Positions 5,236 to 37,821 of a DNA stretch of 64,000 bases are shown piece by piece. Source of the DNA: an uncultured delta proteobacterium (lineage in GTDB: Bacteria; Desulfobacterota; BSN033; UBA1163); contig CAVXWK010000001.1 of NCBI GenBank assembly GCA_963765435.1, forward strand, positions 699,294-763,293, given 5' to 3'. How positions within the stretch are numbered: the first letter of the stretch is position 1; each line of letters begins with the position of its first letter. The notes beneath the pieces are model-generated. The model saw only the letters and a program-made list of their open reading frames with translations. It was not told the origin of the DNA and made no database searches. The translations under genes were made by a program, and so were the position numbers.

Positions 5236-5284
5236 TAACCCCCCTCTTTCCCCCCTTAATTTAACGGGGGATGAAGGGGGGTTA
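5236..5284. repeat. 48-bp double-hairpin palindromic element (copy A)
   Basis: TAACCCCCCTCTTTCCCCCCTTAATTTAACGGGGGATGAAGGGGGGTTA; near-identical copy at 16253-16302. Confidence 0.6.
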
Positions 5285-5324
5285 CATGAGAGAAAAACCG
5301 CCTCACCTTTCTCTTCTCCCCAGA

Positions 5325-5551
5325 GAGACTGTGTCACAATTTATAAAAGCCCGTCCCAAATAGGGCGGAAAAGGCGGTCGGGTGGAAAAGCTTTAGAGCG
5401 GCAACCTTTACGCGTGAAATTCAGACCTTGAAGATCCATGAGATGACTCCATTTTCCATAAGCACCCATTAGTCATTCCTAAAAGACCGCATTCTAAAGC
5501 ATTGAAACCCGACTGTCTCTTCCGCCAGGGCGGCGATTACGACACAGTCTC
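5325..5551. mobile_element. 227-bp MITE-like element with 11-bp terminal inverted repeats GAGACTGTGTC (copy 1)
   Basis: near-identical reverse-complement copy at 42061-42287; no ORF; flanked by CTCTCC...GGAGAG hairpin arms. Confidence 0.6.
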
Positions 5552-6483: not shown

Positions 6484-6665
6484 TCGCTTCTCCTTTCAAC
6501 AACAAAATAACGTGACCGTGTCCCTGCCTACCGGCAGGCAGGCGTGCCGCGTGATTCGTGTCTCGTGACCCGCGAATCTTCCCCAACCCCTCCTGCGGGC
6601 TCCTTGTTTCATAATGCATAACTTGCAACTCAAAACTCATAACTCTTAATTCTTAACTCCCGGTT

Positions 6666-7877
6666 TTAGTCTCCCGATTTGATGGAAAGCAGATGCCCCA
6701 TCTTCTTCGCTTTGGCCTTGAGGTATTCAATATTTTCTTGATGGGGTTTTGTCTCGATGGCCACCCTCTCGACCACCTCGATGCCATATCCCTGCAGACC
6801 GATGATTTTTCGAGGATTGTTTGTCATCAGGCGAATCTTATGCAGACCAAGATCGGCGAGGATCTGAGCCCCGATTCCATAATCCCTCATATCGGCCTTG
6901 AATCCAAGAGCCTCATTCGCCTCCACCGTATCCTTACCCATGTCTTGGAGACAGTAGGCTCTCAGCTTATTGACCAGCCCGATTCCTCTGCCTTCCTGCC
7001 TCATATAGACGATGACCCCTTTTCCCTCTTTCTCCACCATGGCCATAGCTGTATGAAGTTGCTCCTCACAGTCACACCGCTTCGATCCGAACACATCCCC
7101 GGTCAGGCATTGCGAGTGAACTCTTACCAAGACAGTATCTTCAGGTTTGATGTCCCCCTTCACCAAGGCGATATGGTGATAGGGATCCACATCGTTCTCA
7201 TACGCGATGGCCGTAAATACACCCCCGTATTTTGTGGGGATGGTGGCTGTGACAATCCTCCGGACTAAGAACTCCTTACTCAGGCGATATTTGATCAAAT
7301 CGGCAATAGTGACGATCTTCAGTCCATGCTCTTCAGCAAAGGCCAGGAGGTCCGGCATCCTGGCCATGGTCCCGTCATCTTTCATGATCTCGCAGATCAC
7401 GCCTGCCGACTTCAACCCCGCCAATCTTGCTAAGTCGACCGATCCTTCGGTCTGGCCGGTTCGGACCAACACTCCACCCTGCATTGCTCTTAACGGAAAG
7501 ATGTGCCCGGGCGAGACCAAATCCTCGGGTTGGGTGCCTTCATCCACGGCCGTCAAGATAGTGGTTGCCCGGTCACCGGCCGAAATGCCCGTGGTCACGC
7601 CTTTGCGTGCATCGATCGAGACGGTGAACGCGGTCTGAAATCGTGAGGTGTTTTCAGAGACCATCATCGGGAGACGAAGCTCATTCAGCCTCTCGTCCGT
7701 CAATGAAAGACAGATCAGTCCCCTCCCGTATCTCGCCATGAAATTGATGGCCTCAGGCGTCACCTTCTCCGCTGCCATCGTGAGATCGCCTTCATTTTCC
7801 CGGTCTTCGTCGTCGACCAGGATCACCATCTTCCCGTGGCGAATGTCCTCTAACGCAGCTTCAATTCTATGAATCAT
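6666..7877 (-). CDS. ribBA: bifunctional 3,4-dihydroxy-2-butanone-4-phosphate synthase / GTP cyclohydrolase II
   Basis: [11 protein letters not shown] (DHBP synthase) and C-terminal GTP cyclohydrolase II domain. Confidence 0.9.
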
Positions 7878-20879: not shown

Positions 20880-21070
20880 ATTAGGAAACGATTACACCGA
20901 TCTAGTCCCCTTTCATCCCCTTTGTCAAAAGTGGGAAACCTCTCTCCTATTGGCAAACGGGAGAAGTCTCTCCACTCTCTTTACCGATACGGAGAAACCT
21001 CTCTCCCCCCTTCAGCAGAGGGGAAAAACCCCTCTCCTCCCTTTGGAAAAGGGAGGCTGGGAGGGATTTT
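20880..21070. repeat. cluster of 4-5 tandem degenerate 30-bp stem-loops (CCTCTCTCC-N-GGGAGAA type)
   Basis: gggaaacctctctcc / gggagaagtctctcc / ggagaaacctctctcc / ggggaaaaacccctctcctcc seen directly. Confidence 0.5.
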
Positions 21071-21105
21071 ACAAGATCGTTTCAAACGGTTAGGTTGACC
21101 AGAAA

Positions 21106-21276
21106 TCACTTGTCAAGAGGACCCCTTACACCGAGCACGTTCTTTGAGGCAACATGAGTGTAGATCATGGTGGTCTGGAGTTTTTGATAGCCGAGCAGTT
21201 CTTGACTCGTCCTGAAATCATATCCATTTTCAAGCAGGTATCCCGCAAACCGCTGTTCCAATGTATGGACAGAAAC
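21106..21276 (-). pseudogene. intI: integron-integrase (IntI-like tyrosine recombinase) C-terminal remnant B
   Basis: rc translation [56 protein letters not shown]; stop immediately upstream, no start codon. Confidence 0.6.
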
Positions 21277-21347
21277 CTATTTTGTTATCCCCGTTTGCTG
21301 CACTGCAGGCCTAAATGCCCGCTTTGACAGGGGGGGAAGTATTATGG

Positions 21348-21755
21348 TTAAAGCGGCTTTTTCATGTAAAGATTGTCAAGGGGGCTTTTTGGAATACTTA
21401 CCATATCTCTTATCACATGGGTGTAGATCATTGTGGTTTCAAGATGCTTATGACCCAGTAAACTCTGGATCTCCCTGATATTCACTCCGTTCATTAAAAG
21501 ATGTGTTGCGAAACTGTGTCTGAGGGTATGCACGGATGCGTGTTTCACAATGCCTGCCTTTTTCAGGGCCTCTTTTACAGCATTCTGAATCGCCTTCTCG
21601 CTTACATGGTGGCGTCTTATCTTTCCGCTTCTTGGGTCAACCGAGCGTTTTGATGAGGGGAAAACATACTGCCAGCCCCATTCTTTTGCGGCATTTGGAT
21701 ATTTGCGTTCCAGAGCATCTGGAAGGTAGACCTCCCCATGTCCTTCTGAATAGAC
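21348..21755 (-). pseudogene. intI: integron-integrase (IntI) C-terminal remnant A (N-terminal ~200 aa missing)
   Basis: [41 protein letters not shown] (IntI-specific patch) ...[12 protein letters not shown]...TTMIYTHV...SPLD; in-frame stop at 21756-58. Confidence 0.7.
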
Positions 21756-23908: not shown

Positions 23909-24373
23909 GTGGAGATTAAGAAGATATGCGTGTTAGGTGCGGGATTAATGGGTAACGGTATTGCTCAGGTTTGTGCTCAGGCGGGCTATGAAGTCAGCCT
24001 ACGGGATATCGAAAAGATGTTCCTCGATAACGGGATGAATACGATCAAGAAAAATCTGAGCCGCGAGGTTGCAAAAGGAAAGCGAACCCAAGAAGACGCA
24101 GATGCGATTCTGGGCAGAATAAAACCAACGCTCGATCTCAAGGAAGCCGCAAAAGATGCAGACATCATTATGGAAGTCGTGATTGAAGTCATGGATATCA
24201 AGAAAAAAGTCTATCAGGAACTGAAAGGAATTGTAAAACCTGATGGCCTTATTTTTAGCAATACATCCAGCTTGAGCATCACGGCGATGGCTGCAGCAAC
24301 GGACAGACCAGATAGATTCTATTGCAAAGAGTACAAAAGACGGGCTCTTGATCTCCGGGACAAAATGCTATAA
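23909..24373 (+). pseudogene. 3-hydroxyacyl-CoA (3-hydroxybutyryl-CoA) dehydrogenase, 3'-truncated
   Basis: ICVLGAGLMGNGIAQV NAD-binding N-terminal domain; sequence departs from family after SNTSSLSIT and stops; C-terminal domain absent. Confidence 0.6.
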
Positions 24374-25127
24374 CACGAATGCACCAAAGTCTAAATATAC
24401 CGTCCTTTATGGGACCGAGGATCCAACCGCCGATGATGCAGAAAATCCAATGTCTCAAAGCCTCATTCCTTTAAAAGATCCGACGATCACTGTAGAACGG
24501 GTTTTTATCCCAACCGTTCCAAAGGTTCATATTGGTAAAGAGACTTTCAAGGAAACACTTGTTCCCAATAAAAGAATACTCTGCGATGTGGGCAAGGGGA
24601 AATTCGGCCTGTTTGAAGGGCTTGCTGTCGAAAGGATAGGTATTGCCATATCCGCCGTCTGCCAGTGCTGGAGCTCTCTGATGCACGCTACAATCTATTC
24701 GAATTTGAGAAAACAGTTTGGCCAAGAGGTAAGCAGATTCCAGGGTGTAGGCTTCTTGCTGGCTGAATATTATGCAAAGGTTTCGACTATAACATTTGCT
24801 ACCCTTGCCTTCGCCCGGGGTTATGATGAAGCCGTTAAAAAGCACAAGGGCCATCTGCCTGATATACTCACTCAACAATATGTAATGGCTGCCTCGCAGA
24901 TGAAATATCAAGCAACACATCTTTCTGAACGATGCTGCTATGAGATGTGTAATATTATGGGCGGGAACGGCCTTAATGATAATACCTTAATGGATGACCT
25001 GATGGGTTTATCGCGAATCCAGGAGATAATAGGCGGATTCAGAGAGATTCAGCTTTCATATCATGATGGGCGCCATAAAAAAGATGTGGAGATTGATATA
25101 AACTATCCTTTGCTTATCCTATTCTAA
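24348..25127 (+). pseudogene. acyl-CoA dehydrogenase C-terminal fragment (N-terminal domain missing, degenerate)
   Basis: RIGIAISAV...FGQEVSRFQGVGFLLAEYYAKV ... GGNGLNDNTLMD resembles ACAD middle/C-terminal domains only. Confidence 0.5.
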
Positions 25128-27978: not shown

Positions 27979-28031
27979 AACAGTTCGCTAAAGGGAGTGA
28001 ACGGGTATTTGCAGGAATGGATGCAATGTAG

Positions 28032-28196
28032 AACTAACAGGGTCAGGTCTCAACAATCAACAAGGCTTTTTCACAAGTTAAGACCAGGCCAATTTCCAGA
28101 CCCCAAAGCCTTCACTGACAGAAAATAATTTTCTATTTTCGAACCGGCAGAAGAAGCGATTCTGAAAAGGCGACTTTTTCAACAGTCCCTTTACAT
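28032..28196. repeat. attC-like cassette-boundary repeat, family 1, copy 1
   Basis: about 150-bp imperfect repeat shared with 28785-28965 and 29575-29718; ends near GTTAAAA. Confidence 0.55.
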
Positions 28197-28212
28197 GTTA
28201 AAATAGATCTCC

Positions 28213-28386
28213 ATGAGTCTTACTGTCTTCAGAGAAAAAGGGTATAGATTTTATTTTCTTTCAAATGAAGAGAATAGAATCCATATCCACGTCACGTGCG
28301 AGGACGGAGAAGCTAAATTTAACATTGTTGAGGAGCATAGAGATGAAATCATTAAGGCGTCGCAAAAGCATTTCGGTAAGCGTTGA
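28213..28386 (+). CDS. DUF4160-family small protein
   Basis: MSLTVFREKGYRFYFLSNEENRIHIHVTCEDGEAKF matches DUF4160 pattern. Confidence 0.7.
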   Translation: MSLTVFREKGYRFYFLSNEENRIHIHVTCEDGEAKFNIVEEHRDEIIKASQKHFGKR

Positions 28387-28654
28387 AAATATAACCCCTC
28401 TTGGCATCTGGCTTTTTGTAAAAGAAACGGAATACTTTTTGAGCTATAAAGATTATCCTTATTTTATGGATCAAAGGTTGCGTTCCATACAAAATGTTCA
28501 GTTGCTTCACGGTTATCATTTATATTGGCCAGAATTGGATATTGATTTAGAAATTGATAACCTCGTAAATCCTCAAAAATACCCTCTGAAATCAAGCGCT
28601 ACAAAAAAGCGTCCGGCAACTCATTCAATGGGACGGCGAATAGCCTCCCGTTGA
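28343..28654 (+). CDS. DUF2442-family small protein (partner of DUF4160)
   Basis: MKSLRRRKSISVSVENITPLGIWLFVKETEYFLSY...LYWPELDIDLEID; overlaps upstream gene by 44 nt. Confidence 0.7.
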   Translation: MKSLRRRKSISVSVENITPLGIWLFVKETEYFLSYKDYPYFMDQRLRSIQNVQLLHGYHLYWPELDIDLEIDNLVNPQKYPLKSSATKKRPATHSMGRRIASR

Positions 28655-28784
28655 TTCTGTCGTTATACAATGGTTTGAAGGTCTTGGCAAACGGTGGTCT
28701 TCGCTACCATGAGCTGGCCGATGTCCAGCGCTGGGCGGAGTTTGTTAGGGTGAGGGGTCAGCCCTTGACGCAGGACAAATGGAA

Positions 28785-28965
28785 GCAAACAGGGTCAGGC
28801 CTCAAAAATCAACAAAGCTTCTTCAAAAGTTGAAACCAGGTCTTGGTACCAGACCCAAACATTTTCAACGACAGAGAATCATTTCCTATTTTTGATCCGG
28901 CAGAAGAAGCACTTCTTTAAAAAGCACCAATTTCTACAAGCTTGTTGCAAGGAAAATAGGTTGTT
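28785..28965. repeat. attC-like cassette-boundary repeat, family 1, copy 2
   Basis: shared core ...CATTTCCTATTTTTGATCCGGCAGAAGAAGCAC... Confidence 0.55.
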
Positions 28966-28982
28966 TCCAAAATGCACACAAT

Positions 28983-29282
28983 GTGCTACTATATAAGCGG
29001 ATGAAGTATATAAATTGGAATACGGAAAAAAGCCTGAGACTCAAGGAACTGAGAGGAATTTGTTTTGAGGATGTAGTGTACCATATTGAAAAAGGCGACG
29101 TTCTCGATGATTATGAGCATCCGAATCAAAAGCGATATTCAGGACAGCGGATAATGGTGATCGGCATAGACAACTATGCATACCTTGTCCCCTACGTTGA
29201 GGACATAGAAGAAATATTTCTGAAGACTATTATCCCGAGCGGGAAGGCTGCTGAAATTTATTTTGGGGGAAAAGCGAAATGA
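28983..29282 (+). CDS. BrnT-like (DUF497) type II toxin
   Basis: INWNTEKSLRLKELRGICFEDVV...DDYEH...QRIMVIGI pattern; followed by BrnA-like gene with 4-nt overlap. Confidence 0.6.
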   Translation: MLLYKRMKYINWNTEKSLRLKELRGICFEDVVYHIEKGDVLDDYEHPNQKRYSGQRIMVIGIDNYAYLVPYVEDIEEIFLKTIIPSGKAAEIYFGGKAK

Positions 29283-29557
29283 AAAACAGATTGGCGGAAG
29301 AAGAACAGGCAATATTGGACAGTTTTGAAAGAGGGGAATGGGTCCCAGTAAAGGCTCTTGCAAAACGGAAAAGAGAGCTAATCCGATACGCGAGAAACAC
29401 TTTAAAGAAAGATAAGAGATTGAACATCCGGATTTCCGAAAGAGACTTGAATGAACTGCAAAAAAAGGCAGTGAGCGAGGGATTGCCCTATCAGACATTT
29501 GTTTCCAGTATCATTCATAAATATGTTAACGGCAAACTAGTAGAGGCCAAGCGCTGA
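29279..29557 (+). CDS. BrnA-like ribbon-helix-helix antitoxin
   Basis: LNIRISERDLNELQKKAVSEGLPYQTFVSSIIHKYVNGKL typical BrnA/CopG antitoxin C-terminus. Confidence 0.7.
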   Translation: MKNRLAEEEQAILDSFERGEWVPVKALAKRKRELIRYARNTLKKDKRLNIRISERDLNELQKKAVSEGLPYQTFVSSIIHKYVNGKLVEAKR

Positions 29558-29574
29558 TTAAGAAGATCAAGTCC

Positions 29575-29718
29575 CGAAGATCAAGGTTCTTCAAAAGTTG
29601 AGACCAAGTTTCGTGACCAGACCCGGGGACTTCCAATGACAGAGAATCATTTCCTATTTTTGATCCGGCAGAAGAAGCACCTTTTAAAAAAGTGACCTTT
29701 TCTACAAGCTCGTTGGAT
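29575..29718. repeat. attC-like cassette-boundary repeat, family 1, copy 3 (ends in GTTGGAT core)
   Basis: GTTGGAT at 29712-29718 fits GTTRRRY 6 bp before the SDR start codon. Confidence 0.55.
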
Positions 29719-29723
29719 GGCCC

Positions 29724-30596
29724 TTGCGTAGAAACTGGATGGTGCACACCGTGCAAACACTTAGGAATCAGGTGATTTTAGTTACAGGTGCCACCGATGG
29801 CCTGGGGAAGCGAGTTGCCCGCGACTTGGCTGCGCGAGGGGCGACAGTTCTCCTGCACGGGCGCAGCCGGGAGAAGGGAGAAGCCACCCTTCAGGAAATC
29901 CGGGAAGCCACCGGTAACCAGAAGCTCAATTACTACAACGCCGACTTCTCCTCACTCGATGCAGTCCGACAGCTCTCCGAGGAGATACAGACTGACCAGG
30001 AGCGTCTCGATGTGCTCATTAATAATGCTGGCATTGGAGCGGGGTTGCGTCAGTCCCGGCGAGAGAAAAGTGCGGACGGCTACGAGTTACGCTTCGCTGT
30101 CAACTACTTAGCCCCCTTCCTCCTGACGCAACGGCTGCTGCCTTTGCTCCGCCGGTCGGCCCCTGCCCGTATCGTCAACGTCGCTTCAGCCGGCCAGCGG
30201 CCCATTGACTTTGACAATGTGATGCTGGAGGATGGGTACGATGGTCTGAGGGCATACCGACAGACCAAACTTGCGCTAGTGATGTTCACGTTCGATCTCG
30301 CTGAGGACTTGAGGAAAACCGGCATTACGGTCAACAGTCTTCACCCTGCAACCCTCATGAGCACAAGAATGGTGCTTGAGACCGATTACTTCGGGGGCCC
30401 GATCAGCACCGTAGAGGAGGGGGCGCATGCGGTAGAATACCTTGCTACGTCGTCCGAGCTCACTGGTGTGACTGGCGAATACTTTGACGGGAAGCAGCGG
30501 ACGCGTGCTAACGCTCAGGCCTATGACAAGGAGGCACGGCGGCGGTTGCGGATATTGAGCGAGCAACTTACTATAGCGAACGACATAGAAAAGTAG
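29724..30596 (+). CDS. short-chain dehydrogenase/reductase (SDR) family oxidoreductase
   Basis: VTGATDGLGK, NNAGI, Y...K SDR motifs; GC-rich relative to neighbours. Confidence 0.8.
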   Translation: MRRNWMVHTVQTLRNQVILVTGATDGLGKRVARDLAARGATVLLHGRSREKGEATLQEIREATGNQKLNYYNADFSSLDAVRQLSEEIQTDQERLDVLINNAGIGAGLRQSRREKSADGYELRFAVNYLAPFLLTQRLLPLLRRSAPARIVNVASAGQRPIDFDNVMLEDGYDGLRAYRQTKLALVMFTFDLAEDLRKTGITVNSLHPATLMSTRMVLETDYFGGPISTVEEGAHAVEYLATSSELTGVTGEYFDGKQRTRANAQAYDKEARRRLRILSEQLTIANDIEK

Positions 30597-30600
30597 TCAT

Positions 30601-30665
30601 TGCGAGGAGCGAAGCGACGTGGCAATCCCGCGAGATTGCTTCACTTCGTTCGCAATGACATGTTG
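30601..30665. repeat. imperfect palindrome (attC-like) downstream of the SDR cassette
   Basis: GTCATTGCGA...TCGCAATGAC outer arms with inner GCAATC-CCGCG-AGATTGC palindrome. Confidence 0.4.
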
Positions 30666-30723
30666 AGGATGTCAACTTATTTTTGTCGTTCGTTATAAGC
30701 TCAGGGAAAAGTGGAAGGAATAT

Positions 30724-30939
30724 ATGAAATATATGGTGGTTATTGAAAAAGGGAAGTCAAGTTTCGGTGCTCATGTTCCCGATCTGCCTGGATGTATAGC
30801 GGTAGGAAAAAGCCGAGAAGAAGTCCTCGAGCTTATCAAAGAGGCGATAGAGTTACATATCGAATCTCTTCGAGAATCGGGGAAGGAAATACCTTCTCCG
30901 TCGTCAGTTGGTGAATACGTGGAAGTAAAGGCAGCTTAG
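30724..30939 (+). CDS. HicB-family antitoxin (UPF0150), no adjacent HicA
   Basis: MKYMVVIEKGKSSFGAHVPDLPGCIAVGKSREE typical HicB N-terminus. Confidence 0.7.
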   Translation: MKYMVVIEKGKSSFGAHVPDLPGCIAVGKSREEVLELIKEAIELHIESLRESGKEIPSPSSVGEYVEVKAA

Positions 30940-30946
30940 TACACCA

Positions 30947-30989
30947 TTACAACGGACGCTGTACCTCCCGGTGAGCCATACCGTTGGGC
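30947..30989. repeat. short attC-like site (TTACAAC ... GTTGGGC)
   Basis: inverse-core-like TTACAAC and core-like GTTGGGC bracket a CAACGG/CCGTTG stem. Confidence 0.45.
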
Positions 30990-31058
30990 TATCAAGCTCG
31001 CTGGAGCAGGCAGCCTAAACCCAAAGGGTGTTGAGAATAAAAAAGGAGGGGAAATACG

Positions 31059-32942
31059 ATGATGATGTTAGAAACGATAGAATGGTTTGCTTCAATTGTC
31101 GGTGGTTTTATTGCTCTGATACTTTTTCTTCGCGGCTTTTGTTTGATCAGGGCCTATCAAGTCGGCATCCTGACTAAAAACATGTTCGGCAAAAAAATGC
31201 CCGAAGGACAAATCATCGCGCGTCATGGGCAAGTAGGGATTCAGGCGAAGACGTTGATGCCGGGGCTCTACTGGAGGCTGCCTATCATCTGGTCATTTAG
31301 AAAAGTTCCGGTCGTGACGATAGATATCGGCAGTATCGGTATTGTCGAATCGATTGACGGAGAAGCACTTCCTAAAGGGAGAGTGTTAGCCGACGAAGCC
31401 GAGTGTAATCAATTTCAAGATGCAGAGATGTTCTTAGCCAACCATGGGAAGAAGGGACCGCAAGTTGGAATTCTGCGTCCGGGTACCTACCGGATCAACA
31501 CGATACTGTTCAATATTGCCAAAGCCCCTGCAGTAAAAATAGCTGAGAATACCATTGGTGTCGCCGTTGCTAAAGATGGCATTCCCCTACCGACAGGCTA
31601 TATCATCGCTCCGAAGGCTAAAAATGATGACGGTACCGAAGCAGACCACAAATCTTATCAAAATGGCCAGCTCTTTATCGACAGCAAAGGATACCGGGGA
31701 CCACAGTTGGATACCCTGCAGCCGGGGATATATTACATCAATCCGAACTTATTTGATATTAAAATTGAAGAGGTAGCCGAGGTCCTTCCGGGATATGTCA
31801 CAGTGATCAGGTCGAACGTGGGACTAGAGCTTGAGAGGGCACCCGAAGGTCCCGATCGATCTACCGGGGAAGGAAAACTCTGTGGTCCGATCCATGAAGA
31901 TGTTGAGAAAATACTGATAACCGACAAATATACTCGCGGCATTTGGAGAGAGCCGATAGCACCAGGAAAATATAATCTGAATGCGATTGCTTTCACAGCC
32001 TATCAAGTACCTACTTCCGCCGTGACCATCGATTGGGCATCCGAGGGAAGAATCGGGACGGAGGTAAAGGGAATTAAACCAACCGAGGCTAAGGCTGCCG
32101 GGGTCCTGTACAGTTTCGATCCCTTGAAGGTGACTTCTAAAGATGGCTTTCAACTGGAAGTCAATGTCCGAATGGTGATTCGAATTCAACCGGGCAATGC
32201 GGCCTACATCATCGCGAGATTCGGGTCCGTGGCCAATCTGATTGATCAAATCGTACATCCGTTGATTGATTCATCTTTCAGGAATAAAGCCGGCGAGAAG
32301 AAAGCGATTGACTTTTTCCAGAGCCGGACGGACTTACAGACCGAAGCGCTGTTACACGCCAAAGAAAGATTTTCCGAGTACAACGTAGAGGCTCAAAACT
32401 TACTCATTGCCTATATCGATATCCCTAAGGATTTGCTGGACACTCAAACCAAGAAGGAGATTGCCAATCAGCAGCAAGCCCAGTATGACCAGGAGGCACT
32501 CGCTCAGGAAAAACGCATTGCGGTCATGGAGAAATCGTCCCGGGCGGATAAGCAGAAAGATGTTATTGATGCAAAATTATCTATCGATATCAATAATGAC
32601 AGGGCTGAGGCCAGAGTTAAGGAAGCCGACGGCATCAGGCGCTCTGTGATTCTCCAGGCTCAAGGGACTAAAGAATCCACGATACTGGTGGCTGACGGCA
32701 ATTCTTACAAAAGCAAGATTGAGGGCGACGGTGTCGCCGCTGCCTACAATGTCCAGAAAGAGGCCATTGGTCAGCAGAATGTAGCGATCATCAAACTCAT
32801 TCAGGAGATAGCGGCCGGTAAAATTCAGATCGTGCCACAGATTCTGGTTGGGGGTGGGGATGCTTCAGCGGGCGGCAACCTGTTCAATGCATGGTTAGCT
32901 CAAATGCTTTCACAAAAAGTACCGAAACAGGAGGGAAAATAG
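31059..32942 (+). CDS. flotillin-like SPFH/band-7 membrane protein (YqiK/FloT-like)
   Basis: N-terminal TM helix, SPFH-like core, coiled-coil Q/E/A-rich region and flotillin-type C-terminus (KIQIVPQILVGGGDAS...NLFNAWLAQM). Confidence 0.6.
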   Translation: MMMLETIEWFASIVGGFIALILFLRGFCLIRAYQVGILTKNMFGKKMPEGQIIARHGQVGIQAKTLMPGLYWRLPIIWSFRKVPVVTIDIGSIGIVESIDGEALPKGRVLADEAECNQFQDAEMFLANHGKKGPQVGILRPGTYRINTILFNIAKAPAVKIAENTIGVAVAKDGIPLPTGYIIAPKAKNDDGTEADHKSYQNGQLFIDSKGYRGPQLDTLQPGIYYINPNLFDIKIEEVAEVLPGYVTVIRSNVGLELERAPEGPDRSTGEGKLCGPIHEDVEKILITDKYTRGIWREPIAPGKYNLNAIAFTAYQVPTSAVTIDWASEGRIGTEVKGIKPTEAKAAGVLYSFDPLKVTSKDGFQLEVNVRMVIRIQPGNAAYIIARFGSVANLIDQIVHPLIDSSFRNKAGEKKAIDFFQSRTDLQTEALLHAKERFSEYNVEAQNLLIAYIDIPKDLLDTQTKKEIANQQQAQYDQEALAQEKRIAVMEKSSRADKQKDVIDAKLSIDINNDRAEARVKEADGIRRSVILQAQGTKESTILVADGNSYKSKIEGDGVAAAYNVQKEAIGQQNVAIIKLIQEIAAGKIQIVPQILVGGGDASAGGNLFNAWLAQMLSQKVPKQEGK

Positions 32943-32948
32943 ATAAAA

Positions 32949-33275
32949 ATGAAAAAGTGTCCCTTCTGCGCTGAAGTTATTCAAGACGCCGCGATAAAGT
33001 GTAAACACTGCGGTGAGTTTCTGGATGCTTCCACCCCCCGGCGCTTTGCAGAAAAAAAGATGCAATGGTATTTCCGAAAATCCTTTATTATCATTGCAGT
33101 CCTCTCAGTGGGGCCTCTGGCCTTGCCCCTGATTTGGTGGCGGCCACAAACGACGCGGGCATGGAAGATCGGACTCACGATAGGAATCCTTGTTCTCAGT
33201 TGGATATTGTTCCAAACGACGATGGAATCCCTTCGCACAATCAAGGAGTATTACAAGCTAATCCAAGGACTATGA
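32949..33275 (+). CDS. zinc-ribbon (CPFC...CKHC) membrane protein, hypothetical
   Basis: N-terminal C4 zinc ribbon then two predicted TM helices; 7 nt after the flotillin stop. Confidence 0.5.
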   Translation: MKKCPFCAEVIQDAAIKCKHCGEFLDASTPRRFAEKKMQWYFRKSFIIIAVLSVGPLALPLIWWRPQTTRAWKIGLTIGILVLSWILFQTTMESLRTIKEYYKLIQGL

Positions 33276-33405
33276 AATGATCTACCGGTAGAACAAGTCA
33301 GTAAACACCGACCGGGCTTACGTCGCGGCTTTATGTAAGTGTGCATGGTCTTGTAATTTATTACAAATTGGTAGTTCTTCGGGTATGACGCCCGGCGGGT
33401 TACCT

Positions 33406-33469
33406 CCGCGTTGAGGCTGTAGAAAAAGCCAATCTCGACCGAATCCGGTGAGTTGGATGAAAACGCGCC
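33406..33469. repeat. repeat family 2, copy a (CGCGTTGAGGCTGTAGAAAAA...GGTGAGTTGGATGAAAACGCG)
   Basis: about 65 bp, 85-90% identical to 34292-34358; CGCGTT...AACGCG termini. Confidence 0.55.
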
Positions 33470-33583
33470 GTCTCAGGATGCTTTATATATGAGCATCTCA
33501 TACCGGGAGGGGTCAAGATCCCCCAAAAACCACCCCCTCATTGTAACGGTGAGCTTTCTCTAAAGGCTCTTATCATTTTGCTC

Positions 33584-33616
33584 TTGACAATAGTAAACAA
33601 ATTGTTTACTATTGTC
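33584..33616. promoter_or_regulatory. sigma70-like promoter inside a 15-bp-arm perfect palindrome (putative HigA operator)
   Basis: TTGACA-17nt-TACTAT; GACAATAGTAAACAA|TTGTTTACTATTGTC ends 2 bp before higB ATG. Confidence 0.5.
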
Positions 33617-33618
33617 CA

Positions 33619-33900
33619 ATGATCAAGTCGTTCCGTTGTCGTGAAACCCAAAAAATATTTCATCGACAATTTTCCAGAAAGTTTCCACAGGACATCCAGC
33701 AACGTGCTTTTATGAAACTTAATGCGATTGATGCGGCAACTCGGCTTGAAGATTTAGGTCTACCGTCACCAAACCGACTTCAGGCTTTGAAAGGGGAACG
33801 TAAAGGGCAATGGAGCATTCGTATTAACGATCAGTGGCGTATTTGTTTTGAATGGCGTAATGGTAATGCAGAAATGGTGGAAATCGTCGATTATCACTGA
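33619..33900 (+). CDS. higB: HigB-like (RelE/ParE superfamily) killer toxin
   Basis: MIKSFRCRETQKIFHRQFSRKFP...ALKGERKGQWSIRINDQWRICFEW typical HigB. Confidence 0.75.
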   Translation: MIKSFRCRETQKIFHRQFSRKFPQDIQQRAFMKLNAIDAATRLEDLGLPSPNRLQALKGERKGQWSIRINDQWRICFEWRNGNAEMVEIVDYH

Positions 33901-33910
33901 GGAGGTTGAC

Positions 33911-34213
33911 ATGAACAAGAAGCGTATTTCTCCAGTACACCCTGGGTTATATCTAAAAGAGTTGCTTGACGAGTTGAAGTTGTCGCAATACCGACTCGCC
34001 CGGGAGTTGGGTGTGCCCGCTATGCGTATCAATCACGTTGTGAATGGTAAACGTCCGGTAACAGCGGAGCTTGCTTTGCGCCTGGGGCGCTATTTCGGGC
34101 AAAACCCGCGTTATTGGATAAACCTACAAAGTCGGTATGATATGGATATTGCCGAAGATGCGCTGTCCGAACAGGTAGCGCGTGAAGTACGTCCCATGAT
34201 GGCAGCCGTTTGA
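33911..34213 (+). CDS. higA: HigA antitoxin (XRE-family HTH)
   Basis: ISPVHPGLYLKELLDELKLSQYRLARELGVPAMRINHVVNGKRPVTAELALRLGRYFG; RBS GGAGG before ATG 33911. Confidence 0.75.
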   Translation: MNKKRISPVHPGLYLKELLDELKLSQYRLARELGVPAMRINHVVNGKRPVTAELALRLGRYFGQNPRYWINLQSRYDMDIAEDALSEQVAREVRPMMAAV

Positions 34214-34291
34214 TCTCAATAACAATGTTCATTGCTTCATTCGAATGGCATGGCCTAACATGGCGCGCCGAACATTCCGGCTCTGGGTGAC

Positions 34292-34358
34292 CCGCGTCGT
34301 TGAGGCTGTAGAAAAATTCAATCTGGTCCGAATCCGGTGAGTTGGATGAAACCGCGCC
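34292..34358. repeat. repeat family 2, copy b
   Basis: see 33406-33469. Confidence 0.55.
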
Positions 34359-34443
34359 CTCAATTCGATGCTTCTGAGTTAAAAACAGGTTGACACCTTC
34401 CTTTCACGTACATATAATCCTTTCATCTATAGAACAAACTTAA

Positions 34444-35729
34444 GGCAACCTCTAAAAATGTGAATTTTGAAAGTTAGAAATTCGTTGAATCGAATTCAGA
34501 GAAAATGTTAAGCACAAAACCCAATCGTTCATCTTACGAAACCTATTTGAACCGATCTTTTGATCGCTTGTTAACGATCCTACCGGGTCATTTTGCCCGG
34601 TGGATATACTCGGGGGACTCATGTCCCCACCACCACGCAGTAGCGATCCAAATTGTAAGCCAGATTCCTCAAACCAACCTTGGCCTTGACCCGGACCAGG
34701 CCAATGGCCCGTACAATCAGCCTTCCCGCTCGCTTCGCCTGCACCCCAAAGACATGTTCCACACGACTCCGAATTCGGGAACGCGTTCGGTTCCCCTGAG
34801 CCTCTCGGTCCGTCAGTGTCTTGTGCCTGCATCCTTTACGCTGAAGATGCTCCCGATACTTCCGTTTCTTCAACTCCTTGAGCTTTTCCTCCGAACGGTA
34901 CGCCGAGTCTGTCCACACATCTCGACTGCTGTTATCCTCATCCAGAAGATCCTCAAAGACCTGACTGTCATGAACCGACGCGGGCGTCACTTCATAACTG
35001 CGAATCAGTTTATGTTTCACATCCACATCGATATGATTCTTATAACCGTAGTAGTTCTGGCCATTCTTCTTGGTCCAGCGGGCATCCGTATCCTTCTGCC
35101 GCTTCTTCTGTTCGCTCCAGTCTTCTGGAATCTCTCCTTGCTTGATTCGCTTATTCTCTTCCCGACTGTTCCGCTGTTTCGGCACAGCAACGATACTGGC
35201 GTCCACAATCTGCCCTTTCCGGGCCGAGAAGCCTTGTTCGCAAAGATACGTTTCAAATTGCTCAAAGGCTTTCTCAATCACCCCGGCTTCGGTCAATTGC
35301 TCCCGAAACAACCAGATGGTCTTAGCGTCCGGAACGTCATCTCCCAAAGACAAATCCAAGAATCGCATAAACGAGAGACGATCCCGAATCTGAAACTCTG
35401 CTTGCTCGTCCGACAGATTGTACAGCGATTGAAGAATCAGCACCTTGAACATCAACACAACCTCAAAGGGTTTTCGACCCGCACTGGATTTGCGCTCTTT
35501 GTCTCGCACCGCTTCCAGCAGAGGTCGAAATCGGCCCCAGTCCACCATTGTCTGAATCCTGGGGAGCGGGTCACCGCCCTTGTCCAACTGTTTAAAACGT
35601 ATCTGCCAATCCAACAAACCGGTCTGCATCATCTGTTTTCCTCCTGCCTCGTTTTTGGTGACCGTAACATACTGGTTGTTAGATTGGTAGAGTGTTGATA
35701 GTAAATTTAGCTAATTTTTAGAGGAACCC
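34444..35729 (-). mobile_element. IS5-family insertion sequence (IS5 group), 16-bp imperfect IRs GGCAACCTCTAAAAAT, 4-bp TSD TTAA
   Basis: IRs and flanking TTAA at 34440-43 and 35730-33 seen directly. Confidence 0.8.
34619..35632 (-). CDS. IS5-family DDE transposase
   Basis: 337 aa, KKNGQNYYGYKNHIDVD...TPASVHDSQ motif. Confidence 0.85.
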   Translation of the reverse strand: MMQTGLLDWQIRFKQLDKGGDPLPRIQTMVDWGRFRPLLEAVRDKERKSSAGRKPFEVVLMFKVLILQSLYNLSDEQAEFQIRDRLSFMRFLDLSLGDDVPDAKTIWLFREQLTEAGVIEKAFEQFETYLCEQGFSARKGQIVDASIVAVPKQRNSREENKRIKQGEIPEDWSEQKKRQKDTDARWTKKNGQNYYGYKNHIDVDVKHKLIRSYEVTPASVHDSQVFEDLLDEDNSSRDVWTDSAYRSEEKLKELKKRKYREHLQRKGCRHKTLTDREAQGNRTRSRIRSRVEHVFGVQAKRAGRLIVRAIGLVRVKAKVGLRNLAYNLDRYCVVVGT

Positions 35730-35762
35730 TTAAGAAGGATTTTAGCTGTAAAAGAAAGACGA

Positions 35763-36017
35763 ATGATGGAAGGCAACCATGAAAGAATTCTTAACCCCTG
35801 GATATTCATCTGGACTAAACCACGAGCAACAATTCAACAGATAGTCGACACGAATCCAGGGAAATTGGTTGTACTCTTGGCCGCCATCGACGGTTTCTCG
35901 GGAGTACTGAACAATGCGAGCCTGAGGAATCTTGGAGACAAATATGACTGGCCCATCATCTTTGCCATCGCCGCAGTTGCTGGGGCAATTGGGGGAATAA
36001 TAGGTTTGTATGACCCC
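35763..36017 (+). pseudogene. Yip1-family membrane protein, 5' part (gene interrupted by IS3 element)
   Basis: ILNPWIFIWTKPRATIQQIVDTNP...; reading frame resumes at 37282 after removal of IS plus one CCC copy. Confidence 0.6.
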
Positions 36018-36047
36018 TGATGTCAATAGTGGACACGAAGCGCTCTC

Positions 36048-36908
36048 TCATGCTGCAAGTTGCCTTGTATAGAACTGCCGCTCATAGACAACCGGAGAAA
36101 GGTACCCCAGCCGTGCTTGCCGTCTTTGCCGATTGTAGAATACCTCGATGTATTCCGTGATCTCCCGGATGGCCTGCTCTCTCGTCTTGAAGCGACAGTG
36201 ATGGACAAGCTCATTCTTGAGCGTACCCCAGAAGCTCTCCATGGGAGCATTGTCGTAGCAGTCGCCCTTCCTGCTCATAGATGCTCTCATCTTGAACTGA
36301 TCCACCAGCTTCCGGTATTCATGGGCGCAGTACTGACTCCCACGATCCGAATGGTGAATCAGGCCTGCTCCGGGCCGTTTGGCTGCCACGGCTCTGAACA
36401 GAGACTGGCTCACCAGGTTCTTGGTGAGACGATTGCCCATGGCATATCCAACGATTTCTCCCGTGCAGAGGTCCTTATGCCCTGCCAGATAGAGCCAGCC
36501 TTCTTCTGTGGGGATATAGGTAATGTCGCTGACCCAAACCTCGTTCGGCGTCGTTGCCTTAAACTGCTGATTGAGCAGATTCTGTGCCACAGGCAGAGCA
36601 TGCTTCGAATCCGTGGTGGCCTTGAACTTCCTCTTCTGCTTACACCGTAACCCAAGCTTCTTCCTGATCCGTCTGATCCGGCAGATCCCGACCTTTACAC
36701 CCTGTTCTTTGAGCTCATGCTGTAATCTCTCTGGACCGCACGTCTCACGGGTCCTCTTGTGGGCGGCTTTTATCTCTACTTCCAGCCTTCCCTCTTCCAG
36801 GACACGTTTGGAAGGCTTGCGCCTGAACCATTGGTAATAACCGCTCTTGGATACACGCAGAATACGGCACATCATCCCAATACAATACTTGAATCGCATT
36901 GCTTTCAT
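36048..36908 (-). CDS. IS3-family transposase OrfB (DDE integrase core)
   Basis: SDITYI...HSDRGSQY...DNAPMESFWGTLK motifs. Confidence 0.85.
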   Translation of the reverse strand: MKAMRFKYCIGMMCRILRVSKSGYYQWFRRKPSKRVLEEGRLEVEIKAAHKRTRETCGPERLQHELKEQGVKVGICRIRRIRKKLGLRCKQKRKFKATTDSKHALPVAQNLLNQQFKATTPNEVWVSDITYIPTEEGWLYLAGHKDLCTGEIVGYAMGNRLTKNLVSQSLFRAVAAKRPGAGLIHHSDRGSQYCAHEYRKLVDQFKMRASMSRKGDCYDNAPMESFWGTLKNELVHHCRFKTREQAIREITEYIEVFYNRQRRQARLGYLSPVVYERQFYTRQLAA

Positions 36909-37222
36909 GATCGCGTACCTGGCAGCGACTCCTTCGCAAAGTACACGGCCGCTTTTTTTAATATGTCTCGCTCCATCCTGGCTTCTGCCAGTTCACGCTT
37001 CACCCGGGCAAGCTCCATCTCTATTTCCGTAAGCGGCCTCTGGTGCTTTCCAACCTCCTTAAGCTTGCCTTCTCTGCTCGCCTTAACCCAGTACCGTATT
37101 GTCGAGGCCGCAACCGATAACCGACGCCCCACCTCCGGTATCTTTAATCCGCCTTCTGTTACGAGCTTCACTGCTTCCTCTCGAAGTTCCTTCGTGTAGA
37201 TTGCTCTCGGAATCCTTTCCAT
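36905..37222 (-). CDS. IS3-family transposase OrfA (HTH)
   Basis: 105 aa helix-turn-helix, overlaps orfB start; frameshift site likely. Confidence 0.8.
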   Translation of the reverse strand: MERIPRAIYTKELREEAVKLVTEGGLKIPEVGRRLSVAASTIRYWVKASREGKLKEVGKHQRPLTEIEMELARVKRELAEARMERDILKKAAVYFAKESLPGTRS

Positions 37223-37281
37223 TCTGACACCTCCGTCTTTAGTATTTTACCTCAACTTTGGTGTCCACAAAAGTCATCTTA

Positions 37282-37680
37282 CCCCAGTACTTAGCTGGTG
37301 CGCTGATTCGTTGGACAGGAAAGTGGATTGGTGGACAAGCCCCTTCCCAAAACATTCGGGCTGCGATTGCGTGGTCTAGTGTCCCAACAATATGGGCATT
37401 AATACTCTGGATACCTCAACTTGTACTATTTGGTCAGGAACTGTTCACAACTGAGACACCAAGAATACATGCGAGCCCGTCTCTGGGGTTTATATCGCTA
37501 GGTTTTGTTGCGATTCAATTAATAATTGCGATATGGGCAATCGTTGTATTTCTGAAGTGCTTAGGGCAAGTTCAAGGATTTTCAGCCTGGAGAGCGCTTG
37601 GGAATACAACTCTGGGGGCTCTGGTTATCGTGGTCCCGATTGCAATAATTGCAATTATTGTCGTGTGTATAGCTCGATAA
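37282..37680 (+). pseudogene. Yip1-family membrane protein, 3' part
   Basis: continues ...QYLAGALIRWTGKW... in frame with 35763-36017 when IS3 is excised. Confidence 0.6.
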
Positions 37681-37821
37681 TTTTTCGTTATATACGACTC
37701 TTCGGCTAGCGACAGCTTCCAGTTGACAGTTGATCCGCTTCGGTCCACGGCATAAACGGAACCTGGCCGATAGGCATCTATCTATCACAATATTAGCACT
37801 AACAAACTATGGAGGTCTGAG

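What the first reader, a model, noticed from the sequence alone, without database searches (positions are those of the whole stretch)
27990..34440. Integron-cassette-like array: same-strand small genes separated by long attC-like imperfect repeats
Three ~150-bp related repeats lie at 28032-28196, 28785-28965 and 29575-29718. Shorter palindromic sites follow at 30601-30665 and 30947-30989, the latter bracketed by TTACAAC and GTTGGGC. A second ~65-bp repeat family sits at 33406-33469 and 34292-34358. Together they delimit at least six plus-strand gene modules typical of chromosomal-integron cargo: DUF4160/DUF2442, BrnT/BrnA-like, an SDR, a lone HicB, flotillin plus zinc-ribbon protein, and HigB/HigA. 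Several repeats end in GTTRRRY-like cores immediately before the next gene (GTTGGAT at 29712, GTTGGGC at 30983, GTTAAAA at 28178). The cassettes point away from the decayed intI remnants at 21.1-21.8 kb, as in a canonical integron, although about 6 kb of other DNA intervenes. This fits a chromosomal cassette array lacking a functional integrase (CALIN-like).
Basis: partly seen in the sequence, partly recalled or inferred. Interest (0 to 1): 0.8.

Follow-up and report, generated by a model that had tools for sequence, protein, structure and literature searches.

The report
Integron remnant invaded by attC-targeting MITEs
This is a decayed integron gene-cassette array, but its conspicuous repeats are not the recombination sites: they are miniature relics of an IS1182-family transposon that inserts exactly into those sites, a habit I found no report of.

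Summary
The repeats, the gene modules and the intI remnants are all real. The region is a degenerate integron cassette array, running from about 28.0 to 37.8 kb. It has same-strand toxin-antitoxin cargo and a pseudogenised intI at 21.1-21.7 kb.

The five conspicuous repeats are not attC sites. They do not fold as attC and get no hit from two attC covariance models. They match the ends of a 1.8-kb IS1182-family insertion sequence, of which a full copy lies in locus L012. The 33.4/34.3-kb pair are MITEs carrying its terminal inverted repeats. The three ~150-bp repeats carry its last ~90 nt fused to a second small element.

In more than 120 metagenome loci this IS and its MITEs sit between '...C GTT' and 'GTT AGGC'. 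Removing them in silico restores canonical attC sites. Orientation is fixed, in the sense of the cassette genes.

The real attC sites in the window are shorter sequences at 28611-28668, 30939-30989, 33288-33412 and 34253-34301. Two of them are split by MITEs at the GTT core.

The known attC-targeting elements are the IS1111-attC group and the group IIC-attC introns. Both are reported to insert near the 5' end of attC, antisense. I found no report of an IS1182-family one.

The parts
21354..21743 (-). intI pseudogene, C-terminal ~130 codons, including the IntI-specific extra domain. The N-terminal half and attI are missing.
   Evidence: Frame translation. TIGR02249 gives 190.8 bits at model positions 191-315 of 315. 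It is 76-77% identical to the IntI genes of L013 and L014.
21100..21324 (-). Second, shorter intI C-terminal fragment.
   Evidence: Pfam Phage_integrase. tblastn with IntI queries gives 45-55% identity.
28039..28189 (+). rep1, a composite non-autonomous repeat. About 67 nt of a second small element (GGGTCAGGTCT...) is fused to the last ~90 nt of the IS1182-family right end. The IRR is degenerate (CTTTTTCAACAGTCCC) and the flanking GTT has decayed to TTT.
   Evidence: The same composite is found in L005, L018, L117, L118 and L074.
28213..28654 (+). Cassette genes DUF4160 (28213-28386, with a 23-codon in-frame deletion relative to L074) and DUF2442 (28343-28654).
   Evidence: Pfam. Gene calls of L011. 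L074 comparison.
28611..28668 (+). attC of the DUF4160/DUF2442 cassette. R'' is decayed and R' is GTTATAC. It is uninterrupted.
   Evidence: R1 17.9 bits (E 0.1). R2 14.9 bits. It is conserved in L074, where R1 gives 20.4 bits.
28790..28943 (+). rep2, the same composite repeat, followed by GTTGCAA (28944-28950).
28983..29557 (+). Cassette genes: a BrnT/DUF4258-like toxin (weak match) and a CopG-type antitoxin.
   Evidence: Pfam. L074 has a different TA pair, plus attC and a 240-nt MITE, at this position.
29583..29711 (+). rep3, a 5'-truncated copy of the composite. The IRR is CCTTTTCTACAAGCTC. It is followed by GTTGGAT (29712-29718).
   Evidence: It is 85-91% identical to the right ends in L008, L010 and L012.
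29739..30596 (+). SDR gene.
   Evidence: Pfam adh_short 1.1e-38.
30597..30659 (.). 63-nt near-perfect palindrome. It is not attC-like. It is followed by GTT and a 38-nt degenerate IRL/IRR-like stub (30665-30702).
   Evidence: Fold z -5.3. No hit from either model. Unique in the window and in all fetched loci.
30724..30939 (+). Lone HicB antitoxin gene. It is absent from the related strain L074.
   Evidence: Pfam 8.8e-16..
30939..30989 (+). Uninterrupted short attC. L''-like TTACAACGGAC, L' CCGGTGAGC, R' GTTGGGC. R'' is degenerate.
   Evidence: R1 9.2 bits and R2 10.9 bits, both weak. Its 3' half matches the consensus left flank of the IS insertion sites.
31059..33275 (+). Cassette with a Band_7/flotillin-like protein and a zinc-ribbon membrane protein.
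   Evidence: Pfam.
33288..33412 (+). 125-nt attC, split from its R' tail by MITE-A exactly after GTT (33410-33412).
   Evidence: R2 29.2 bits, E 1.3e-4. R1 18.5 bits.
33413..33569 (+). MITE-A, a complete 157-nt MITE. IRL is GAGGCTGTAGAAAAAG and IRR is CTTTCTCTAAAGGCTC.
   Evidence: It aligns over its full length with the 146-160-nt MITE class from metagenomes, 75% identical over 160 nt to the L132 copy.
33619..34213 (+). HigB/HigA cassette. It is absent from L074.
   Evidence: Pfam..
34253..34301 (+). attC with canonical R'' GCCTAAC, split by MITE-B after GTT (34299-34301).
   Evidence: R2 16.3 bits (E 0.13). R1 10.1 bits.
34302..34438 (+). MITE-B, the 5' part of a MITE of the same family (IRL GAGGCTGTAGAAAAAT). 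It is truncated by an IS5-family insertion.
34439..35734 (-). IS5-family insertion sequence (21-nt inverted repeats, 337-aa transposase). It is unrelated to the attC-targeting family.
   Evidence: Inverted repeat I11. Pfam and NCBIfam NF033581 at 291 bits.

Best explanation
The locus is a fossil chromosomal integron. The integrase gene is reduced to two C-terminal fragments. A plus-strand array of cassettes, mostly toxin-antitoxin pairs, survives from about 28.0 to 37.8 kb.

The repeats that catch the eye are not the integron's attC sites. They derive from a 1.8-kb IS1182-family insertion sequence with a DDE transposase of 517 aa and terminal inverted repeats GAGGCTGTAGAAAAAG / CTTTTTCTACAGGCTC. 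Its non-autonomous derivatives (MITEs) are 96-413 nt long.

This element family inserts into attC sites immediately after the GTT of the R' core. That is the triplet where the integron integrase makes its crossover. GTT is present on both sides of the element, consistent with a 3-bp target duplication. Orientation is always the same, with the transposase co-directional with the cassette genes.

In the window, two attC sites (33288-33412 and 34253-34301) carry such MITEs. Three further junctions carry a composite repeat, whose 3' ~90 nt is the IS right end fused to a second small element. Two attC sites (28611-28668 and 30939-30989) are uninterrupted.

Shown by computation: the homology of the repeats to the IS ends; the flanks; the restoration of attC on in-silico excision; the fixed orientation; and cassette differences between strains.

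Inferred: transposition by the DDE enzyme, with MITEs mobilised in trans (no transposase of this family lies in the window); recognition of the attC, as a hairpin or as its L'-spacer-CGTT sequence; and use of the repeated MITEs as homology for recombination that reshuffles or deletes cassettes.
For: 1. Repeats match the IS ends.
- rep1-3 and the fam2 5' ends flank a full-length IS1182-type element in L012. The left end is ...ATC GTT|GAGGCTGTAGAAAAAG, followed by a 517-aa transposase. The right end is ...CTTTTTCTACAGGCTC|GTT ATGC.
- The transposase scores 253.6 bits on NCBIfam NF033551, covering model positions 33-486 of 488.
- L008 units are internal-deletion derivatives that keep the first 10 and last 8 codons of the transposase.

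2. Metagenome flanks.
- 55 unique elements had both ends: MITEs of 96-413 nt and about 15 copies of about 1.8 kb.
- The right flank reads GTT A(80%) G(77%) G(59%) C(53%). 60 of 124 unique flanks fit GTTRRRY, against 1 in 16 expected once GTT is fixed.
- The left flank is ...CCGCTGA-n-C-n5-C GTT, which is the L'-spacer part of attC.

3. Excision restores attC.
- In-silico excision gives canonical 50-93-nt attC sites. One example is GCCTAACCGGTTGCAGCGGACGGCGCTTCACGCCGCCGCTGAACCGGGACGTTAGGC.
- AAC...GTT-closed hairpins are far stronger at these sites than at random CGTT sites in the same loci. The medians are -0.336 and -0.159 kcal/mol/nt (Mann-Whitney p = 3e-15).
- The R''/R' and L''/L' pairs covary: 84.8% of cells are paired, with a covariation score of 0.253 against 0.119 for shuffles (0 of 500 shuffles reach it).

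4. Orientation.
- Of 25 right ends that did not match the selection 20-mer, 21 are followed by GTT and none by AAC.
- attC-profile hits in those loci are 72 on the element's strand and 2 on the other.

5. The model is a real attC model.
- It was built only from the excised flanks. It still finds attC sites beside intI genes in L013 and L014, which were fetched independently, and in the canonical divergent orientation.
- In the window it hits only short sites right after cassette genes. It never hits rep1-3 or the fam2 repeats.

6. Breadth.
- Full-length transposases in attC flanks are 55-93% identical to the L012 copy.
- A 45%-identical relative in Pseudoalteromonas piscicida has the same inverted-repeat core and GTT/GTT flanks inside an attC array.

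7. Strain comparison.
- L074 is 88-95% identical to the window. It has other cassettes at the same slots, and a full 240-nt MITE behind an attC where the window has rep3.
Against: - Only one window attC (33288-33416) reaches a significant E-value. The other three are weak, at 9-18 bits, and are accepted mainly on position and strand.
- rep1-3 have no recognisable left inverted repeat. Their left junctions are not at an attC GTT, so how this composite multiplied is unexplained.
- The 20-mer used to fish loci contained GTT. The GTT on the right side is therefore independent only for the 25 extra ends and for all the left ends.
- No empty-site/filled-site pair was found. The 3-bp duplication is therefore inferred from flanks only.
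- The transposase scores just under NCBIfam's IS1182 cutoff (253.6 against 270).
- IntegronFinder itself was not run.
- Six kb of metabolic genes, two of them truncated, separate the intI remnants from the array. The link between the two is therefore positional only.
Confidence: 0.85

Rival explanations
1. One reading: the ~150-bp and ~65-bp repeats are themselves unusually long, lineage-specific attC sites, like the VCR repeats of Vibrio, and IntI recombines at their GTTRRRY ends.
For: The repeats sit between same-strand cassettes. They end in GTTGGAT or GTTGCAA and are preceded by AACTAAC or AGCAAAC. In rep2, CAACAAAGCTT can pair with AAGCTTGTTG (centroid structure).
Against: Folding is no better than shuffles. 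Neither attC model gives a hit at E<=10 with filters off. The 3' ~90 nt aligns with the right end of a transposase-carrying IS. The fam2 repeats start with that IS's left inverted repeat and belong to a 157-nt MITE. The AAC-like box is part of the repeated element and not an independent R''. Real attC sites lie immediately upstream of the fam2 repeats.
Confidence: 0.04
2. The repeats are generic genome-wide REP or MITE elements that happen to sit in this region and have no specific relationship to integron sites.
For: They are MITE-like. Thousands of related transposases exist in metagenomes. The host genome outside the window could not be scanned.
Against: In 55 unique insertions the flanks are attC halves with CGTT / GTTRRRY. 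The hairpin test against random CGTT sites gives p = 3e-15. Orientation is fixed. There are no copies elsewhere in the 64-kb window.
Confidence: 0.04
3. The attC-like flanks belong to the mobile element itself, so that the element carries half-attC ends, rather than being a pre-existing target.
For: No empty-site allele was recovered. The left inverted repeat begins GAGGC, which resembles the AGGC of the R' core.
Against: The left flanks differ widely in sequence and in length (50-148 nt) between copies, while the element ends stay constant. Uninterrupted attC sites of the same types occur in the same arrays. Tandem MITE-GTT-MITE junctions occur. The flanking cassette genes differ from copy to copy.
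Confidence: 0.03
4. The repeats are cis-regulatory or non-coding RNA modules (promoters, 5' leaders) that serve the downstream toxin-antitoxin genes.
For: They lie directly upstream of genes. Group IIC-attC introns are known to carry outward promoters (PMC3001079).
Against: There is no Rfam hit. Promoter-like sites are no more frequent than in shuffles, and none recurs in the three copies. RNA folds are not better than shuffles. The homology to the IS ends explains their conservation.
Confidence: 0.04

Closest known systems
IS1111-attC group (ISPa21, ISPst6, ISKpn4; IS110/IS1111 family)
   Same: These are insertion sequences that insert specifically, and in one orientation, into attC sites of integron cassettes.
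   Different: They use a DEDD transposase guided by a seekRNA (PMC11187229), not a DDE IS1182-type enzyme. They are reported to insert near the 5' end of attC and antisense to cassette transcription (PMC3001079). The elements here insert at the 3' R' core GTT, in the sense orientation, and have spawned abundant MITEs.
Group IIC-attC introns
   Same: These are mobile elements specialised on attC sites. Their orientation is fixed. They can separate a cassette gene from part of its attC.
   Different: They are retroelements that insert into the bottom strand, opposite to cassette transcription (PMC3001079). They have no inverted repeats, no transposase, and no GTT duplication.
IS1272 / TnSha1 and other IS1182-family members that target hairpins or palindromes
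   Same: They belong to the same IS family by transposase (NF033551 is the best hit). That family has a documented preference for inverted-repeat or hairpin targets (PMC4923244, PMC5678879).
   Different: IS1272 shows no primary-sequence specificity. It inserts in either orientation, makes no target duplication, and deletes part of the hairpin. The elements here choose one triplet of one class of hairpin, keep the target intact, have GTT on both sides, and take one orientation.
CALIN / decayed sedentary chromosomal integron
   Same: It is a cluster of attC sites with promoterless same-strand cassettes, rich in toxin-antitoxin genes, and without a working integrase.
   Different: Most attC sites here are interrupted or replaced by transposon debris. 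The intI remnants are separated from the array by about 6 kb of unrelated, partly pseudogenised metabolic genes.

Membership tests
attC site (applied to the five long repeats: rep1-3, and 33409-33472 / 34298-34361) | Single-strand hairpin with R''(RYYYAAC)/R'(GTTRRRY) and L''/L' pairing, detectable by an attC covariance model. | tested here: not met
   Bottom-strand folds give z -0.9, -1.75, +0.7, -1.1 and +0.7. R1 and R2 give no hit at E<=10 with filters off. The fam2 repeats begin with GTTGAGG rather than an AAC box.
attC site (applied to 33288-33412) | Covariance-model match with R'', bulged L'', L', and R' GTT, on the strand of the cassette genes and directly after a gene. | tested here: met
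   R2 gives 29.2 bits at E 1.3e-4, and R1 gives 18.5 bits. The site begins 13 nt after the stop codon of the zinc-ribbon gene.
attC site (applied to 28611-28668, 30939-30989 and 34253-34301) | The same feature as for 33288-33412. | tested here: inconclusive
   Scores are 9-18 bits with E 0.1-9.5. All are on the + strand, at gene ends, with L'/spacer/CGTT matching the consensus. 34253 has a canonical GCCTAAC. 28611 is conserved in L074.
Integron | An intI gene carrying the IntI-specific additional domain. | tested here: met
   It is present only as a pseudogene. TIGR02249 gives 190.8 bits over model positions 191-315 of 315, with the motif [21 protein letters not shown]. The N-terminal half is absent.
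Integron | attI site and Pc promoter adjacent to intI, followed directly by the cassettes. | tested here: not met
   The 5' half of intI and whatever lay upstream of it are gone. A TetR gene and a partly truncated butyrate-type operon (22.1-28.0 kb) lie between the remnant and the first repeat.
CALIN | Two or more attC sites without a nearby functional integrase, as called by IntegronFinder. | not testable with these tools
   IntegronFinder is not available. My own models give four same-strand sites in 5.7 kb and no intact intI in the window.
IS1182 family (the autonomous element, L012 4304-6104) | Transposase matching the family model over its full length. | tested here: inconclusive
   NF033551 gives 253.6 bits against a cutoff of 270, covering 33-486 of 488. 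The next family, IS5, scores only 32 bits. The precomputed Pfam domains are DUF772 + DDE_Tnp_1 + DDE_Tnp_1_6.
IS1182 family (the autonomous element) | Terminal inverted repeats bounding a single transposase gene. | tested here: met
   The 16-nt inverted repeats differ at one position. About 15 copies measure 1764-1875 nt.
MITE of that IS (window 33413-33569 and 34302-34438) | Small, non-coding, with the same terminal inverted repeats and target as the autonomous element, and in many copies. | tested here: met
   IRL has 0 and 1 mismatches, and the IRR of MITE-A has 2 mismatches. MITE-A aligns over its full length with the 146-160-nt class from 20 other loci. The left flank is CGTT.
MITE of that IS (window rep1-3) | Both terminal inverted repeats present. 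| tested here: not met
   Only the right ~90 nt is IS-derived. The left part is another element and no IRL is found. These are best described as a composite derivative.
IS1111-attC group | DEDD (IS110/IS1111) transposase. | tested here: not met
   The transposase is of the DDE_Tnp_1 / IS1182 type.

The most novel reading that the evidence does not exclude
A previously undescribed, ancient and very abundant clade of IS1182-family DDE transposons is specialised on integron attC sites. Its transposases are 45-93% identical to the L012 copy. It is found from uncultured Thermodesulfobacteriota-type bacteria to Pseudoalteromonas. It comes with a swarm of 96-413-nt MITEs.

The elements insert in the sense orientation exactly at the GTT where IntI makes its crossover. 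The left end (GTT|GAGGC) re-creates a near-consensus R' core. The attC upstream may therefore stay recombinogenic, while the element rides along as the 5' end of the next cassette.
Probability: 0.5. Interest if true: 0.72.

Novelty: new variant of a known kind. Interest (0 to 1): 0.6.

Why it matters
The array itself is ordinary. What the repeats turned out to be is not.

- They add a third class of attC-specific mobile element. It uses a DDE transposase and has many MITE derivatives. It hits the opposite end of attC, in the opposite orientation, compared with what is reported for the two known classes.
- Such insertions split attC sites at the integrase's crossover triplet. They could therefore freeze cassettes, create hitch-hiking 'cassette leaders', or supply portable homology that reshuffles arrays.
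- They are common enough in sediment, soil and wetland metagenomes to break assemblies.
- Because they are conserved repeats sitting between cassettes, a reader can mistake them for attC sites, as happened here.
- They also offer a natural example of a DDE transposase that reads a structured recombination site. That could be tested directly with a cloned attC.

Tried and rejected
- Rfam scan of the window found only a tRNA.
- Folding the repeats as DNA bottom strands or as RNA showed no excess structure, except for the 30.6-kb palindrome.
- I first tried to read L008 and L010 units as 300-nt attC sites with GTT at both ends. I rejected this once the 17-codon mini-ORF (MARYK.YDYS...RYGLEFA*) proved to be the fused first and last codons of the L012 transposase.
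- The IntI homologue search returned only fragments of 229 aa or fewer. L013 and L014 gave split intI genes with canonical cassettes but none of the repeats.
- A sequence-only attC profile (nhmmer) on excised sites outside the training loci was too insensitive, at 3 of 24 against 10 of 500 controls. I replaced it with the constrained-hairpin test.
- The search for empty-site alleles among fetched loci found none.
- The promoter and terminator scan gave nothing above shuffles, and nothing recurrent in the repeats.
- tblastn found no IS1182-type transposase in the window.
- The R1 hit at 35609-35684 lies inside the IS5 element. I take it as chance, because it is not recovered by R2.
- Literature searches for IS1182 with attC, integron or cassette, and for MITE with attC, found no report of this targeting. 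The Tetu & Holmes 2008 paper itself is not held.

Full report
**Observation.**
- The three ~150-nt repeats are 75-87% identical in blocks. Their 25-nt core occurs only three times in the window, against none expected.
- The second family (33409-33472 and 34298-34361) is 91% identical and equally local.
- Pfam confirms every gene call.
- The intI remnants are genuine. Minus strand 21354-21743 encodes the IntI-specific extra domain and the catalytic C-terminus. TIGR02249 gives 190.8 bits on model positions 191-315 of 315. A second C-terminal fragment follows at 21100-21324.
- One coordinate is off: GTTAAAA is at 28197, not 28178.
- The same gene order occurs on an NCBI MAG contig, GCA_052143695.1 JBKQSF010000056.1 (L011).

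**The repeats are not attC sites.**
- Folded as bottom-strand DNA, the five long repeats are no more stable than shuffles (z -0.9, -1.75, +0.7, -1.1, +0.7). Only the 30597-30659 palindrome stands out (z -5.3).
- A scan of one genome per species with the repeat core found the same repeat in arrays between small same-strand genes in two Desulfobacterota-type MAGs and one short contig (L005, L008, L010).
- In L008 the units begin with the first 20 nt of the window's '65-bp' family and end with the last ~90 nt of the '150-bp' family. The two ends are inverted repeats of each other. The units contain a 17-codon ORF, MARYK.YDYS...RYGLEFA*.

**What they are.** An IntI-homologue search led to L012. 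There an intI fragment lies next to a complete 1.8-kb element.
- Its left end reads GTT|GAGGCTGTAGAAAAAG. A 517-aa transposase follows, beginning MARYKDYDYS and ending HRYGLALA*. The right end reads ...CTTTTTCTACAGGCTC|GTT.
- The transposase is IS1182-type. NF033551 gives 253.6 bits over 33-486 of 488, just under the cutoff of 270.
- The L008 units are therefore internal-deletion derivatives, that is, MITEs.
- In the window, 33413-33569 is a complete 157-nt MITE. It aligns end to end with a 146-160-nt class from 20 other loci.
- 34302-34438 is the left part of another MITE, cut by an IS5-family element (34439-35734).
- rep1-3 share their last ~90 nt with the IS right end. Their first ~67 nt belong to a different small element with GGGGTCAGGTCT-type ends. 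The same composite recurs in L005, L018, L117, L118 and L074.

- Among 55 unique elements with both ends, sizes cluster at about 97, 137, 147, 159 and 217 nt and at about 1.8 kb.
- The right flank reads GTT-A-G-G-C. 60 of 124 unique flanks fit GTTRRRY, against 1 in 16 expected.
- The left flank reads ...CCGCTGA-n-C-n5-C-GTT.
- Removing the element and one GTT restores textbook attC sites. These have R'' GCCTAAC-like boxes, a bulged L'' (TCCAGCGGAC), L', a spacer and R' GTTAGGC, and are mostly 50-93 nt long.
- Hairpins closed by AAC...GTT are much stronger there than at random CGTT sites of the same loci (p = 3e-15). The pairs covary.
- Twenty-five additional right ends that did not match the fishing 20-mer are followed by GTT in 21 cases and never by AAC. 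attC-profile hits are 72 to 2 on the element's strand. Orientation is therefore fixed, with the transposase in the sense of the cassette genes.
- Full-length copies in such flanks are 55-93% identical in protein to the L012 copy.
- A 45%-identical relative in Pseudoalteromonas piscicida 2515 has the same inverted-repeat core (GAGGCTGTAGAA / TTCTACAGGCTC) and GTT on both sides, inside an attC array.
- More than 7,900 transposases score E<=1e-30 in public data, mostly on 2-kb contigs.

**The real attC sites of the window.** I built a covariance model (R1) from 28 excised flanks, and a second (R2) from 68 R1 hits.
- The model is not circular for the window. It also finds attC sites beside intI in L013 and L014, which were fetched independently through IntI, and in the canonical orientation.
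- With filters off, the window hits that make positional sense are 33288-33416 (R2 29.2 bits, E 1.3e-4), 34253-34305 (16.3 bits), 28611-28668 (14.9-17.9 bits) and 30939-30989 (9-11 bits). All are on the + strand and directly after cassette genes.
- The first two end in the GTT that abuts a MITE. The other two are uninterrupted.
- Only the first is significant on its own. The rest rest on position, strand and motif.
- No hit falls on rep1-3 or on the fam2 repeats.

**The array is, or was, dynamic.** L074 is a metagenome contig from a strain 88-95% identical to the window. It differs from the window in these ways:
- It lacks the HicB gene and the whole 33277-37778 block: attC, MITE-A, HigBA, attC, MITE-B, IS5, IS3 and the membrane ORFs.
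- It carries a RelE-type TA pair plus an attC and a full 240-nt MITE where the window has BrnT/CopG plus rep3.
- It has two other cassettes where the window has the thiolase operon.

The array thus extends to about 37.8 kb. The MITE copies are plausible substrates for homologous exchange.

**Comparison with what is known.**
- attC-targeting elements on record are the IS1111-attC group and the group IIC-attC introns. Both are reported near the 5' end of attC and antisense to the cassettes (PMC3001079, PMC11187229).
- A 2025 integron paper still cites only the IS1111 work for attC-targeting ISs (PMC12444791).
- IS1182-family members such as IS1272 are known to prefer hairpins. They do so without sequence specificity, in both orientations, without duplication, and with partial target deletion (PMC4923244, PMC5678879).
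- I found no paper linking IS1182 to attC.
- ISfinder could not be consulted, so the novelty is probable and not established.

**Verdict.** The array is an ordinary decayed integron, a new member of a known kind. They reveal an attC-specific IS1182-type transposon and MITE family, which is a new variant of known kinds of behaviour.

**Open points.**
- How the composite rep1-3, which lacks a left inverted repeat, multiplied.
- Whether recognition is of sequence or of structure.
- Whether MITE-bearing attC sites still recombine.

Noticed in passing
window 28039-28105, 28790-28858, fragment 28752-28770; L121, L118, L100, L071, L122: There is a second small repeat family with inverted ends like GGGGTCAGGTCTnAAnAAT. 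A full copy in L121 reads GGGCTCAGACTTGAATATTGA...TCAATAATTGAGTCTGACCC. It lives in the same cassette arrays in either orientation. In rep1-3 it is fused to the IS1182 right end. Its parent element is unknown.
   Followed up: partly
L074 (Ga0208821_1001463) versus window 28.0-42.0 kb: A related strain (88-95% identical) has a different cassette complement. It has no HicB, no HigBA/IS5/IS3 block, a RelE-type TA pair instead of BrnT/CopG, and two extra cassettes instead of the thiolase operon. Its DUF4160 is 80 aa, against 57 aa in the window (a 23-codon in-frame deletion).
   Followed up: yes
window 23909-25127: The 3-hydroxyacyl-CoA dehydrogenase gene has only its N-terminal domain, and the acyl-CoA dehydrogenase gene only its C-terminal domain. 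They overlap, which looks like a deletion fusing two genes. This lies in the block that separates the intI remnants from the array.
   Followed up: no
window 21100-21324 and 21354-21743: Two different intI C-terminal fragments lie in tandem on the minus strand. They are only about 45% identical to each other in protein, which suggests remnants of two integrases rather than a recent duplication.
   Followed up: partly
window 30597-30702: A 63-nt near-perfect palindrome (z -5.3) is unique in the window and in all fetched loci. It is followed by GTT and a 38-nt stub that weakly resembles the IS inverted repeats (GAGGATGTCAAC...TTATAAGCTC). Its origin is unexplained.
   Followed up: partly
window 34390-34418: There is a perfect sigma-70 consensus (TTGACA, 17 nt, TATAAT) pointing rightwards, just before the IS5 insertion point.
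   Followed up: no
window 36030-37250 and 35763-36020 / 37258-37680: An IS3-family element (orfA 36905-37222, orfB 36048-36908, minus strand) appears to split a small membrane-protein gene into two ORFs inside the distal part of the array.
   Followed up: no
L135 (Pseudoalteromonas piscicida 2515, NZ_CP074588.1, 757895-765416), element at locus 2880-4718: A cultured gammaproteobacterium carries a 45%-identical IS1182-type element with the same inverted-repeat core and GTT/GTT flanks, in an attC array. R1 hits lie at 1557-1611, 5268-5376 and 6657-6770. The PLSDB gene table held here lists no features in this stretch.
   Followed up: partly
L074 reverse complement 171-205; L075; L091: MITE-GTT-MITE tandem junctions occur (CTTTTTCTACAGGCTC GTT GAGGCTGTAGA...). 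They show repeated insertion at the same attC GTT.
   Followed up: no
window 20900-21040: Three 28-nt direct repeats rich in CCCCTCTCC lie between the orotate phosphoribosyltransferase gene and the intI fragments (family D6).
   Followed up: no
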